A model generated the notes under the pieces. That model worked only from the letters and a program-made list of their open reading frames with translations, was not told the DNA's origin and searched no databases. Source: a virus (Duplodnaviria; Heunggongvirae; Uroviricota; Caudoviricetes). From it: a stretch of 38,371 bases of DNA. Positions 4,528 to 5,601 of the stretch are shown here, piece after piece. Numbering within the stretch: position 1 is the stretch's first letter; every line of letters starts with the position of its first letter. Both the position numbers and the translations under genes were made by a program. The stretch covers positions 1-38,371 of IMG/VR virus record IMGVR_UViG_2563366865_000004, one strand, 5' to 3'.

Positions 4528-4779
4528 ATGTCTGATCGTAAGTACAAAAACCCTCAAGTGAATCTGAGGCTTCCTGTAGAGATAAAGGAACGTCTTATTG
4601 AGCTGGCTGAGGCTAATTCTCGTTCATTAAATGCTGAGATGGTCGCGGCACTTGAAGCGTGGACCGAAAAAAATAAACACATTCAAGCACTAGACCTTGC
4701 AACTATAGCATCGCGGTTGATAGAGCTTGAGCATGAGGTTGAGAAGTTAAAATGTATGCATGGCAACGGTGAAAAATGA
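4528..4779 (+). CDS. mnt: Mnt-like ribbon-helix-helix repressor, 83 aa
   Basis: Translation NLRLPVEIKERLIELAEANSRSLNAEMVAALEAW resembles P22 Mnt; size and position match. Confidence 0.85.
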   Translation: MSDRKYKNPQVNLRLPVEIKERLIELAEANSRSLNAEMVAALEAWTEKNKHIQALDLATIASRLIELEHEVEKLKCMHGNGEK

Positions 4780-5090
4780 AACGCATCGCTATTTTGTTAA
4801 TATTGTTCTTCTCTACAATAGTTTGCGCCAAACAAAAATCAGATAATGGCTATCTTAAAGGCCTGCAAGAACTCATGATAACTTCGAAATTTGCTGGCAT
4901 GTGCGGCACAATCAAACAAATGGCAACATTTCAAGAATCAACAAAAATGCCTGGCGGAGATGAGTTCTTACAGCGTTTTCTGACCACAGAGCAAGCAAGA
5001 CTTGGAATGAATCCACAGGAGTTTCTTGAAGCATGCCAGAAGTCAATTTCAGCTTATACCAATTATTACAATCTAACTTCTGATAAATAA
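4776..5090 (+). CDS. Small secreted protein with N-terminal signal peptide, 104 aa, AT-rich moron
   Basis: MKRIAILLILFFSTIVCA signal-like N-terminus; start overlaps mnt stop (ATGA); low GC relative to flanks. Confidence 0.6.
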   Translation: MKRIAILLILFFSTIVCAKQKSDNGYLKGLQELMITSKFAGMCGTIKQMATFQESTKMPGGDEFLQRFLTTEQARLGMNPQEFLEACQKSISAYTNYYNLTSDK

Positions 5091-5115
5091 TAGAAAGGAT
5101 TTTATAAATAACTTT

Positions 5116-5601
5116 ATGAAAAAATCACTATTAATTATCCCGCTTCTGCTGGCTGGATGCGCAAAAGTAAGTGACTATCAAGCAAGTTGCGAACAACGCT
5201 ATCCAAAGCTTAGTGATATGGCTAATTGCCTTGATGCCAGCGTGAAGAACGACTCACGCATGGCATCAGCACCAACACCTAAGCTGTATGTCCTTGCTGC
5301 GAAGATGCTCGGGCAAGGTGTCGATGAAGGCAAGATAAGTGACGCACAGGCAAGACTTGAGCTTCAGAATCTTTATGTTCAATTACAAAGCCAAGAACAA
5401 GCCCAACAAATAGCACAAAGCCAAGCATTCCAGCAGGCTTTATTGAATTATCAGGCTGTAAACACAATGCAAGCGATCGAGCAAAAAGCGAGACAGCCTG
5501 TTATAACTCAACCTTACCCAACGCGTGTTGACACCTATACAAACTGCAATTCAGGATTTGGAAACACCGTCACATGCAACAGTAGCAGCAACATTAGATA
5601 A
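5116..5601 (+). CDS. Lipoprotein, 161 aa, candidate superinfection-exclusion factor at the P22 sieA position
   Basis: MKKSLLIIPLLLAGC lipobox; Q-rich C-terminal half; located between mnt and the gp16-like gene. Confidence 0.65.
   Translation: MKKSLLIIPLLLAGCAKVSDYQASCEQRYPKLSDMANCLDASVKNDSRMASAPTPKLYVLAAKMLGQGVDEGKISDAQARLELQNLYVQLQSQEQAQQIAQSQAFQQALLNYQAVNTMQAIEQKARQPVITQPYPTRVDTYTNCNSGFGNTVTCNSSSNIR

What the first reader, a model, noticed from the sequence alone, without database searches (positions are those of the whole stretch)
4776..5601. AT-rich secreted protein plus lipoprotein pair at the sieA position, candidate superinfection exclusion module
Between mnt and the ejection-protein genes, where P22 carries sieA, there are two co-oriented genes with lower GC than their neighbours: a 104-aa protein with a cleavable signal peptide and a 161-aa lipoprotein (LAGC lipobox) with a Gln-rich C-terminal half. 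Their envelope targeting, moron-like composition and location next to the DNA-injection genes suggest a role in blocking superinfecting phage DNA entry or modifying a receptor. I do not recognise either sequence.
Basis: inference. Interest (0 to 1): 0.6.

Follow-up and report, generated by a model that had tools for sequence, protein, structure and literature searches.

The report
Prophage lipoprotein at the sieA slot
A K1-capsule-specific P22-like prophage carries two uncharacterised envelope proteins, a periplasmic protein and an outer-membrane lipoprotein, where phage P22 keeps its injection-blocking gene sieA; they are plausible but untested phage-exclusion factors and are two separate cargo genes, not a fixed pair.

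Summary
orfB ends 3 nt from the convergent gene-16 homologue, the place sieA occupies in P22.

Both are real genes under purifying selection (orfB dN/dS 0.03). They match only function-unknown phage families (PHROG 19844 and 6067). They have no Pfam, PADLOC, PDB or fold match and no similarity to SieA, Llp or Cor beyond the signal peptide.

They are not a module:
- orfB occurs in 186 of 5426 complete E. coli genomes, orfA in 61, and both together in 18.
- orfB stays at least 98% identical beside at least four very different gp16 types. It keeps the same position in Morganella, Yersinia, Providencia and Tatumella prophages.
- orfA is always translationally coupled to mnt, and also occurs in Mu-like phages.

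In 67 related E. coli phage contigs, essentially every cargo gene next to gene 16 encodes an envelope-targeted protein, SieA included. Published RNA-seq shows that the Gally orthologue of orfB is transcribed from the prophage.

The best reading is a prophage-expressed outer-membrane lipoprotein that blocks incoming phage at the envelope (confidence about 0.4). A role in serum or macrophage fitness is the main rival. This is a moderately interesting, directly testable candidate.

The parts
4451..4527 (.). arc-mnt divergent control region. It holds an 18-nt-arm imperfect palindrome (4457-4474 / 4478-4495) overlapping sigma-70-like hexamers on both strands. This is the presumed Pmnt/Pant promoter pair with its operator.
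   Evidence: The layout matches the annotated P22 Pant/Pmnt/Oarc/Omnt region. Function is inferred.
4528..4779 (+). mnt-like ribbon-helix-helix repressor (83 aa), the first gene of the transcription unit that carries orfA and orfB.
   Evidence: Pfam Arc, E=3e-10. It is 95% nt-identical to CUS-3 mnt.
4776..5090 (+). orfA, a 104-aa secreted (periplasmic) three-helix protein. Its ATG overlaps the mnt stop codon (ATGA).
   Evidence: junction sequence. PHROG 19844, E=4e-62. Model pLDDT 75.5, helices 24-56, 61-76 and 80-102. Invariant C43 and C87 and the motif FQESTKMPGGDEF.
4776..4832 (+). orfA signal peptide (aa 1-19), with predicted cleavage after VCA.
   Evidence: Read from the sequence. AxA-type sites are conserved in homologues. 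The prediction is heuristic; no SignalP was available.
5116..5601 (+). orfB, a 161-aa lipoprotein and the conserved occupant of the gene-16-adjacent slot.
   Evidence: PHROG 6067, E=3e-110. 94 homologous clusters across Enterobacterales. 256 clusters at 50% identity by profile search.
5116..5160 (+). orfB lipoprotein signal peptide with lipobox L-A-G-C. Cys15 (5158-5160) is the lipidated residue and Ala is at +2.
   Evidence: C15 invariant, G14 at least 90% conserved.
5161..5400 (+). orfB conserved N-terminal helical domain (aa 16-95), with invariant C25 and C38 (probable disulfide) and the motif KLYxLAAxxLGxxVDxGxISDxQAR.
   Evidence: pLDDT is 75-85 over aa 20-100.
5341..5490 (+). orfB long Gln-rich helix (aa 76-125). 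Its distal half is variable and predicted with low confidence.
5533..5589 (+). orfB C-terminal beta-hairpin (aa 140-158) closed by the conserved C144 and C154. The motif TxC...G....C is kept in the wider family.
   Evidence: pLDDT is below 50, so the fold is tentative.
5604..7721 (-). gene-16 homologue (705-aa ejection protein), convergent with orfB with a gap of about 3 nt. It is the conserved neighbour and is not claimed to be part of the function.
   Evidence: A contig gp16 scored 100% identical to the window's (L027) is 68% identical to the C-terminal 155 aa of P22 gp16. gp20 and gp7 follow.

Best explanation
Shown:
- orfA and orfB are two independent accessory ('moron') genes of a CUS-3-like P22-like prophage.
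- They lie behind mnt in the prophage-expressed immI arm, and both products are exported.
- orfA is translationally coupled to mnt and gives a small disulfide-containing periplasmic helical protein.
- orfB gives a lipoprotein that, by the +2 rule, is sorted to the inner leaflet of the outer membrane. It has a conserved helical head, a roughly 50-residue Gln-rich helix and a disulfide-closed C-terminal hairpin.

Inferred:
- orfB is the functional counterpart, though not a homologue, of SieA. It would be made in the lysogen and would protect the cell against incoming phages at the envelope.
- It could bind the periplasmic face of an outer-membrane protein needed for irreversible adsorption or tail-needle penetration, as T5 Llp does with FhuA.
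- Alternatively, it could obstruct assembly of the gp7/gp20/gp16 trans-periplasmic DNA conduit before the inner-membrane step that SieA blocks.
- orfA is a separate periplasmic cargo protein of unknown target that is simply co-expressed with mnt.
For: Position:
- The placement equals sieA/orf59a in P22.
- orfB is immediately convergent with a gp16 homologue in 77 of 80 E. coli phage contigs, and also in Morganella, Yersinia, Providencia and Tatumella prophages.
- orfB stays at least 98% identical while the neighbouring gp16 switches among at least four types that share 35% identity or less.
- The homology blocks end exactly at its start and stop codons.

Relation to SieA:
- No P22-type SieA and no recurrent SieA-like multi-TM ORF was found in any orfB-bearing contig.
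- Only 22 of 66 P22-like phages have sieA, and it always lies between genes 16 and 9 (PMC10883804).

Slot survey: among 67 E. coli P22-like contigs, the 31 with cargo next to gene 16 encode orfB (14), a signal-peptide protein (6), N-terminally anchored proteins (6), multi-TM proteins including SieA (4), and one dubious ORF.

Expression:
- The mnt/orfA ATGA overlap and the 25-nt orfA-orfB spacer place both genes in the mnt transcript.
- The Gally orthologue (98.8% aa identity) is expressed at 70 against a prophage median of 15.6. The adjacent injection genes are at about 14 in LB. It is 6-fold up in macrophages (PMC9928086 tables).

Selection: dN/dS is 0.03.

Precedent: periplasm-facing outer-membrane lipoproteins exclude phage by binding the receptor from inside (Llp-FhuA, PMC9586334).

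The wider family sits on mobile elements.
Against: - There is no sequence, profile or fold similarity to any characterised exclusion protein.
- No phenotype data exist for any family member; literature searches found none.
- Position and envelope targeting fit other lysogenic-conversion functions equally well.
- The macrophage induction of the Gally orthologue points as much to host interaction as to phage defence.
- The orfB model is of low confidence beyond residue 100.
- Some distant relatives lie in apparently chromosomal or non-ejection contexts.
- The slot survey samples closely related E. coli prophages, and topology was scored with simple hydrophobicity rules.
Confidence: 0.4

Rival explanations
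1. Lysogenic conversion for host fitness rather than phage defence. In this reading orfB, and perhaps orfA, is a Bor/TraT-like envelope factor that raises resistance to serum, antimicrobial peptides or the macrophage environment in pathogenic E. coli.
For: - The window phage carries the CUS-3 endosialidase tailspike (99% identity), so it infects K1-capsulated extra-intestinal pathogens.
- The cassette is in the O104:H4 outbreak lineage and in AIEC LF82.
- The Gally orthologue is induced 6-fold in macrophages, q=5e-27.
- Lambda Bor is the textbook case of an outer-membrane lipoprotein moron (cited in PMC7067206).
Against: - The family follows P22-like prophages rather than pathotypes. It occurs in Serratia, Pectobacterium, Tatumella, Yersinia, Morganella and Providencia, and wider relatives occur in environmental metagenomes.
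- Its tight, conserved placement against gene 16 is not explained by a host-virulence role.
- No PHROG or Pfam match to Bor or TraT was found.
- All five genes at that end of Gally, tailspike included, rise in macrophages, so the induction is regional and not specific.
Confidence: 0.2
2. A role in the phage's own lytic cycle. One option is 'lytic conversion' in the Llp sense: inactivating an envelope component so that progeny virions do not eject into debris or vesicles. Another is conditioning the envelope for release.
For: - Llp has this dual role (discussion text of PMC11990801).
- The gene lies at the end of the late operon, where late read-through could affect it.
- P22 is inactivated by outer-membrane vesicles (PMC7541932, listed).
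Against: - orfB is on the strand opposite the late operon, so late transcription is antisense to it.
- It is transcribed with mnt, a lysogeny gene, and is expressed in the Gally lysogen while late genes are at background.
- A complete holin/endolysin/Rz cassette lies elsewhere in the window at 19809-21056.
Confidence: 0.12
3. orfA and orfB form an obligate two-component system, with a periplasmic partner plus a lipoprotein acting as one complex, as the first reader's 'pair' implies.
For: - The two genes are adjacent, co-oriented and separated by 25 nt, and both products are exported.
- The same mnt-orfA-orfB block is found in 18 complete E. coli genomes.
Against: - orfB occurs without orfA in about 70 of 80 contigs and in 168 of 186 genomes.
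- orfA occurs without orfB in many E. coli and Salmonella prophages that carry other cargo downstream, and also in Mu-like and other phages.
- In Morganella, orfB is the only gene between the tailspike and gene 16.
Confidence: 0.05
4. Protection against non-phage envelope attack. orfA and/or orfB would be periplasmic immunity or inhibitor proteins against bacteriocins, tailocins, T6SS effectors or lysozyme-like enzymes.
For: - Small exported disulfide-bonded helical proteins carried on mobile elements are typical of immunity proteins (general knowledge).
- orfA is a stand-alone moron in unrelated phages.
Against: - No family match in Pfam, NCBIfam or PADLOC.
- No toxin or effector gene is linked to either gene.
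Confidence: 0.08

Closest known systems
P22 SieA (superinfection exclusion A; types A, B and C)
   Same: - Same genomic slot: between mnt and gene 16, convergent with and abutting gene 16, in P22-like prophages of the same host range of genera.
- Prophage-expressed.
- Similar size (161 against 164 aa).
- Envelope-located.
- Apparently mutually exclusive with orfB in the contigs examined.
   Different: - No sequence similarity (BLASTP finds nothing).
- SieA is a polytopic inner-membrane protein, whereas orfB is a lipobox lipoprotein with no TM segment and is predicted to be anchored in the outer membrane.
- SieA has its own promoter, whereas orfB in this window follows mnt-orfA with no promoter-like site of its own.
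T5 Llp and the Cor lipoproteins (T1, phi80, N15, HK022)
   Same: - Phage-encoded lipoproteins that contain disulfides.
- They face the periplasm from the outer membrane and exclude phage by acting on the envelope step of infection.
   Different: - Matches to Llp (8a60_B, E=0.57) and to the Cor PHROG (E=0.08) cover only the signal peptide.
- Llp and Cor are beta-rich and about 60 aa when mature. orfB is 146 aa and mostly helical.
- Llp and Cor are encoded next to the receptor-binding protein gene of siphoviruses and target FhuA. orfB lies next to an ejection-protein gene of podoviruses, and no target is known.
Lambda Bor / TraT-type outer-membrane lipoprotein morons
   Same: A prophage-expressed outer-membrane lipoprotein carried as cargo at the edge of a late operon, found in pathogenic E. 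coli.
   Different: - No sequence or profile relationship was detected.
- The distribution follows P22-like phages across many genera rather than virulence backgrounds.
Other occupants of the gene-16-adjacent slot (CUS-3/HK620 HkcB; a 129-aa signal-peptide protein; small multi-TM proteins)
   Same: Same slot and same orientation, and all are envelope-targeted.
   Different: They are unrelated in sequence and in membrane topology, and all are equally uncharacterised.

Membership tests
SieA (P22 superinfection exclusion A) | Sequence homology to SieA type A, B or C, including the FxRYPxEAxxFNK motif | tested here: not met
   BLASTP of orfB against P22 SieA gives no alignment at E<=100. The motif is absent from the orfB sequence. 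Types B and C were not tested directly.
SieA (P22 superinfection exclusion A) | Polytopic inner-membrane topology | tested here: not met
   orfB has one N-terminal signal peptide with a lipobox and no further hydrophobic segment. P22 SieA scores 3 TM segments by the same rule.
SieA (P22 superinfection exclusion A) | Location between genes 16 and 9 of a P22-like prophage, next to gene 16 | tested here: met
SieA (P22 superinfection exclusion A) | Blocks DNA entry of superinfecting P22-like phages, with escape mutations in gp16/gp20 | not testable with these tools
   This needs plating, potassium-efflux or DNA-entry assays and selection of escape mutants.
Llp/Cor superinfection-exclusion lipoproteins | Lipoprotein signal peptide with a lipobox | tested here: met
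   LLAGC, with C15 invariant in 35 homologues.
Llp/Cor superinfection-exclusion lipoproteins | Sequence or profile similarity in the mature part | tested here: not met
   The Cor PHROG 1119 match is E=0.078 over residues 1-29 only. The Llp match (8a60_B) is E=0.57 over profile positions 1-31 only. HK022 Cor, read directly, shows no resemblance.
Llp/Cor superinfection-exclusion lipoproteins | Binds and inactivates the phage's outer-membrane receptor (FhuA) | not testable with these tools
   No complex prediction or binding assay is available here. P22-like phages do not use FhuA (established knowledge).
Outer-membrane (Lol-sorted) bacterial lipoprotein | Basic n-region, hydrophobic h-region, [LVI][ASTVI][GAS]C lipobox, and no Asp at +2 | tested here: met
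   MKK / SLLIIPLL / LAGC / A at +2. CAKV, CATV or CASV is conserved across the wider family. Lipidation and localisation themselves are not shown.
Phage moron (autonomously expressed prophage cargo gene) | Transcribed in the lysogen while flanking lytic genes are silent | tested here: met
   Shown for the orthologue only. Gally LF82_138 is at 70.2 against a prophage median of 15.6, and the adjacent injection genes are at about 13.7 (PMC9928086 S1 table). It was not measured for this prophage.
Phage moron (autonomously expressed prophage cargo gene) | Own promoter and terminator, and deviating base composition | tested here: inconclusive
   No promoter-like or terminator-like site lies next to orfA or orfB; the only sites found lie in 4435-4569, in the arc-mnt control region and the start of mnt. 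GC is clearly low only for orfA, at 0.375.
PHROG 6067 (orfB) and PHROG 19844 (orfA), function unknown | Full-length HMM match | tested here: met
   E=2.6e-110 over 1-161 of 161, and E=3.8e-62 over 1-104 of 105.
Spanin (Rz1-type o-spanin or u-spanin) | Lipoprotein encoded in the lysis cassette, embedded in or adjacent to Rz, or carrying a C-terminal TM segment | tested here: not met
   The PHROG spanin match is E=0.058 over the signal peptide only. The holin and Rz genes lie at 19809-21056. orfB has no C-terminal TM segment.

The most novel reading that the evidence does not exclude
orfB may found a new, widespread class of superinfection-exclusion proteins for short-tailed phages. It would be an outer-membrane-anchored periplasmic lipoprotein that stops the ejection-protein conduit (gp7/gp20/gp16) or needle penetration from the periplasmic side. 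Such a block would work regardless of gp16 type. It would be an outer-membrane/periplasmic counterpart of the inner-membrane SieA block. Relatives (256 clusters at 50% identity) would do the same on other phages and integrative elements. The gene-16-adjacent slot as a whole would then be a dedicated 'entry-defence' hotspot holding at least eight unrelated envelope protein families.
Probability: 0.25. Interest if true: 0.7.

Novelty: new variant of a known kind. Interest (0 to 1): 0.45.

Why it matters
[quoted passage not shown] It is present in 3.4% of complete E. coli genomes, including the O104:H4 outbreak lineage and AIEC LF82.

If orfB excludes phage, it would reveal an outer-membrane or periplasmic step of podovirus DNA delivery that can be blocked. 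It would also give a genetic handle, through escape mutants, on the poorly understood gp7/gp20/gp16 conduit. It would help explain resistance of clinical E. coli to therapeutic or typing phages.

If orfB instead aids survival in serum or macrophages, it is a new prophage-borne fitness factor of pathogenic E. coli. Either outcome can be reached with a few simple constructs.

Tried and rejected
- **Curated family libraries.** Pfam, NCBIfam and PADLOC gave nothing meaningful for either protein. The weak GspK, RVT_N and T3SS-needle hits are far below the cut-offs and are attributed to low-complexity or helical sequence.
- **PDB by sequence and by profile.** Nothing was found beyond a signal-peptide match to T5 Llp.
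- **Structure prediction and fold search.**
  - The orfA model (pLDDT 75) had no Foldseek PDB hit with E<1.
  - BFVD gave nothing for orfB.
  - The afdb50 library was unavailable.
- **Homology to the P22 genes at the same positions.** SieA and Orf59a show none.
- **Cor relationship.** It was suggested by two weak PHROG hits in distant relatives. It was rejected after reading the HK022 Cor sequence.
- **Spanin idea.** Rejected because the lysis cassette is elsewhere and orfB has no C-terminal TM segment.
- **Co-evolution of orfB with the adjacent gp16.** Rejected, because orfB is nearly invariant beside four gp16 types.
- **'Always next to an ejected protein' for the wider family.** This is true for one distant relative, next to a 4839-aa MuF-type polyvalent protein. 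It is not true for others, which lie on an integrative element or in a chromosomal-looking context.
- **Coiled-coil heptad scan of the long helix.** Only a weak register was found (0.67 hydrophobic, counting Ala), so no oligomer claim is made.
- **Literature searches by accession, PHROG id and topic.** No functional study was found.
- **The search for related loci with the broad alignment.** It failed for lack of conserved stretches. The genome-contig scan returned only 5 loci.
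Full report
**What is in the window**

The window is almost a whole P22-like (Lederbergvirus) prophage.
- The 981-aa tailspike (241-3186, minus strand) is 99% identical to the endosialidase of phage CUS-3, so the host is a K1-capsulated E. coli.
- Next come ant (3287-4210, minus; Pfam P22_AR_N/C), arc (4277-4450, minus) and mnt (4528-4779, plus; Pfam Arc).
- The two genes of the finding follow: orfA (4776-5090, plus, 104 aa) and orfB (5116-5601, plus, 161 aa).
- On the opposite strand lie the ejection-protein genes:
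  - A 705-aa gp16 homologue (5604-7721).
  - gp20 (7718-8983; Pfam Inj_translocase).
  - gp7 (8993-9685; Pfam P22_gp7).
- The annotated P22 record has the order 16 -> | <- sieA <- orf59a <- mnt. orfB therefore sits exactly where sieA sits, and orfA where orf59a sits.

**Checking the observation**

- orfA has a classical Sec signal: MKR, a hydrophobic core, then VCA|KQ. Homologues have ANA|E or AAA|E and no conserved Cys at that point, so this is not a lipobox.
- orfB has a canonical lipobox, LLAGC. Cys15 is invariant in 35 homologues and Ala is at +2, which by the E. coli +2 rule implies outer-membrane sorting.
- Residues 85-130 of orfB are 30% Gln.
- The region's GC (0.408) is in the 2.4th percentile of equal-sized windows. 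The drop is mostly due to orfA (0.375). orfB (0.442) is like its neighbours ant and the tailspike.
- Both genes are under purifying selection.
  - orfB is 99% identical in protein to the Gally orthologue although a quarter of synonymous sites differ (dN/dS 0.03).
  - orfA has dN/dS of 0.16-0.22 against diverged homologues.

**What the proteins look like**

*Family and fold matches.* Neither protein matches anything curated in Pfam, NCBIfam or PADLOC, or in PDB by sequence or profile. They do match PHROG 19844 and PHROG 6067 over their full length, and both families are annotated 'unknown function'.

*orfA.* It models as a three-helix bundle (pLDDT 75.5). It has an invariant loop, FQESTKMPGGDEF, and two invariant Cys. 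It has no significant fold neighbour.

*orfB.* It has three parts:
- A well-conserved helical head (aa 16-95, pLDDT 75-85, invariant C25 and C38).
- A long Gln-rich helix running to about residue 125.
- A Pro-rich linker followed by a low-confidence beta-hairpin closed by the conserved C144 and C154.

*The wider orfB family.* A profile search of 1.84 billion representatives finds 256 clusters with E<=0.001. Most are 125-140-aa lipoproteins that share the head and the C-terminal Cys hairpin. None has a Pfam domain.

**Distribution and synteny**

*orfB.*
- It is found in 186 of 5426 complete E. coli genomes, including the O104:H4 outbreak lineage.
- It is also in phages Gally, vB_EcoP-720R6, VSe13, MS2 LVA and Proteus phage Brookers.
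- It forms 94 clusters at 90% identity across Enterobacterales.
- In 80 IMG/VR contigs carrying orfB at 98% identity or more, 77 have a large convergent ORF starting 3-189 nt after the orfB stop.
- These neighbours all share homology with P22 gp16 but fall into at least four types (39, 25, 13 and 3 contigs) that share 35% identity or less, or only partial similarity.
- The same adjacency holds in Morganella, where orfB is the only gene between the tailspike and gene 16. It also holds in Yersinia, Providencia and Tatumella.
- Homology to Gally begins at the orfB start codon, and homology to the O104:H4 prophage ends at its stop codon. orfB is therefore a sharply bounded mosaic module.

*orfA.*
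- It is present in only about 10 of those 80 contigs.
- It is in 61 complete E. coli genomes, of which 18 carry both genes.
- In many E. coli and Salmonella P22-like prophages, orfA-type genes follow mnt with the same ATGA overlap, but different cargo lies downstream.
- More distant orfA relatives are isolated opposite-strand insertions in Mu-like phages, or lie in another phage's early region.
- The 'pair' is therefore a juxtaposition of two independent cargo genes.

**The slot is an envelope-protein hotspot**

I took 80 E. coli phage contigs that share the window's gp7; 67 of them reached past gene 16.
- 36 have no cargo: the tailspike or an mnt-like gene follows gene 16 directly.
- In the 31 with cargo, the gene-16-adjacent product is one of the following:

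| Product next to gene 16 | Contigs |
|---|---|
| orfB | 14 |
| 129-aa signal-peptide protein | 6 |
| N-terminally anchored proteins, including HkcB-like | 6 |
| Multi-TM proteins, including a P22-type SieA | 4 |
| One dubious ORF | 1 |

- No orfB-bearing contig has a P22-type SieA or a recurrent SieA-like multi-TM ORF.
- According to Leavitt et al. 2024 (PMC10883804):
  - SieA is an inner-membrane protein that blocks DNA transport across the inner membrane.
  - Escape maps to gp16 and gp20.
  - Only 22 of 66 P22-like phages carry it, always between genes 16 and 9.
  - It is the only such system studied for short-tailed phages.

**Expression**

- orfA's ATG overlaps the mnt stop codon, and orfB follows 25 nt later.
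- The only promoter-like sites in 4200-5800 lie in the arc-mnt intergenic region. There they overlap an 18-nt-arm palindrome (4457-4495) that resembles the P22 Pant/Pmnt operator layout.
- Both genes are therefore most likely read from the lysogeny-active mnt promoter. This is an inference.
- Direct evidence exists for the orthologue in AIEC LF82 (PMC9928086):
  - In the published tables, GALLYPH_13 (98.8% aa identity) has normalised expression of 70 in LB.
  - The prophage median is 15.6 and the adjacent injection genes are at about 14.
  - The value is just under the authors' five-fold moron cut-off, which is why they reported that Gally has no morons.
  - It is 6-fold higher in macrophages (q=5e-27).

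**Mechanism and rivals**

*Best-supported reading (confidence about 0.4).* orfB is a lysogen-expressed lipoprotein anchored in the outer membrane and facing the periplasm. It protects against incoming phage at the envelope in one of two ways:
- An Llp-like action on the periplasmic face of an outer-membrane component (precedent in PMC9586334).
- Interference with assembly of the ejection-protein conduit upstream of the SieA-sensitive step.

The steps shown are gene reality, export signals, conserved position, independence from gp16 type and prophage transcription of an orthologue. The steps inferred are outer-membrane localisation, the target and the exclusion phenotype.

*Rivals.*
- A host-fitness factor of the Bor/TraT kind (0.2). 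The pathogen backgrounds and macrophage induction favour it. The phage-bound, multi-genus distribution weakens it.
- A role in the phage's own lytic cycle (0.12). The opposite-strand orientation and lysogenic expression weaken it.
- Immunity against other envelope attack (0.08).
- An obligate orfA-orfB complex (0.05), which the distribution essentially refutes.

orfA's function is left open. It is a periplasmic protein co-expressed with Mnt.

**Novelty and verdict**

Both genes are already catalogued as hypothetical proteins, and no functional study was found. orfB is not a member of the SieA, Llp/Cor, Bor or spanin families. At most it works like them.

I rate it a new variant of a known kind: a prophage envelope cargo gene and candidate exclusion lipoprotein. 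Interest is moderate (0.45). The function is unproven. However, the candidate is common, sharply defined and sits at a locus with a proven exclusion function. A few constructs would settle the question.

Noticed in passing
window 24736-27129 (-): The DnaB-type replicative helicase is 797 aa, against 458 aa for P22 gp12. Its DnaB_C domain is split into two stretches around LAGLIDADG_3 and Hom_end matches at residues 393-454. This looks like an intein with a homing endonuclease inside the phage helicase.
   Followed up: no
window 241-3186 (-): The tailspike is 99% identical (853 of 855 aligned residues) to the CUS-3 endosialidase. The prophage is therefore K1-capsule specific, although its immI cargo differs completely from that of CUS-3, which has two mnt genes, two cytoplasmic-looking ORFs and hkcB.
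   Followed up: partly
window 4457-4495: An imperfect palindrome with 18-nt arms (TATTTAGGTACGCATTGA / TCAATAGATACCTACATA) lies between arc and mnt. It overlaps divergent promoter-like hexamers and is probably the Mnt/Arc operator of this immI type.
   Followed up: partly
L001 3448-3867 (phage Gally, GALLYPH_14): Gally has a second, unrelated 139-aa lipoprotein (MKRIIGVVAGAILLSGC...) on the opposite strand between mnt and the orfB orthologue. By log2FC it is induced more strongly in macrophages than orfB (3.84 against 2.55; q=1.4e-31).
   Followed up: partly
L111-L115, about 5550-6430: In E. coli P22-like prophages that have orfA but not orfB, the interval also holds a SocA_Panacea-domain gene with a small upstream partner (a toxin-antitoxin-like pair). 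A 129-aa signal-peptide protein abuts gene 16.
   Followed up: no
L025 212-589 and 590-8589: A distant orfB relative (125 aa) is convergent with, and abuts, a 4839-aa polyvalent protein carrying ddrB-ParB, Eco57I-like, helicase and MuF_C domains. Proteins of this type are thought to be packaged and injected. This echoes the gene-16 adjacency in an unrelated phage.
   Followed up: partly
L108 5037-5426 and 5644-6033: Another distant orfB relative lies on a small integrative element with an integrase and a DUF3987 primase-like gene. A second ORF of identical length (129 aa) lies 200 nt downstream. Whether it is a paralogue was not checked.
   Followed up: no
window 5604-7721 (-): The window's 705-aa gp16 homologue gets no Pfam hit, whereas gp16 of other prophages matches PF26808. 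Its similarity to P22 gp16 was detected only over the C-terminal 155 aa. This illustrates how mosaic this protein is.
   Followed up: partly
PMC9928086, Table 1 and S1 Table: The published statement that Gally 'carries no morons' depends on a five-fold cut-off of 78.1. The orfB orthologue scored 78.2 and 62.2 in the two replicates, so it was missed narrowly.
   Followed up: yes
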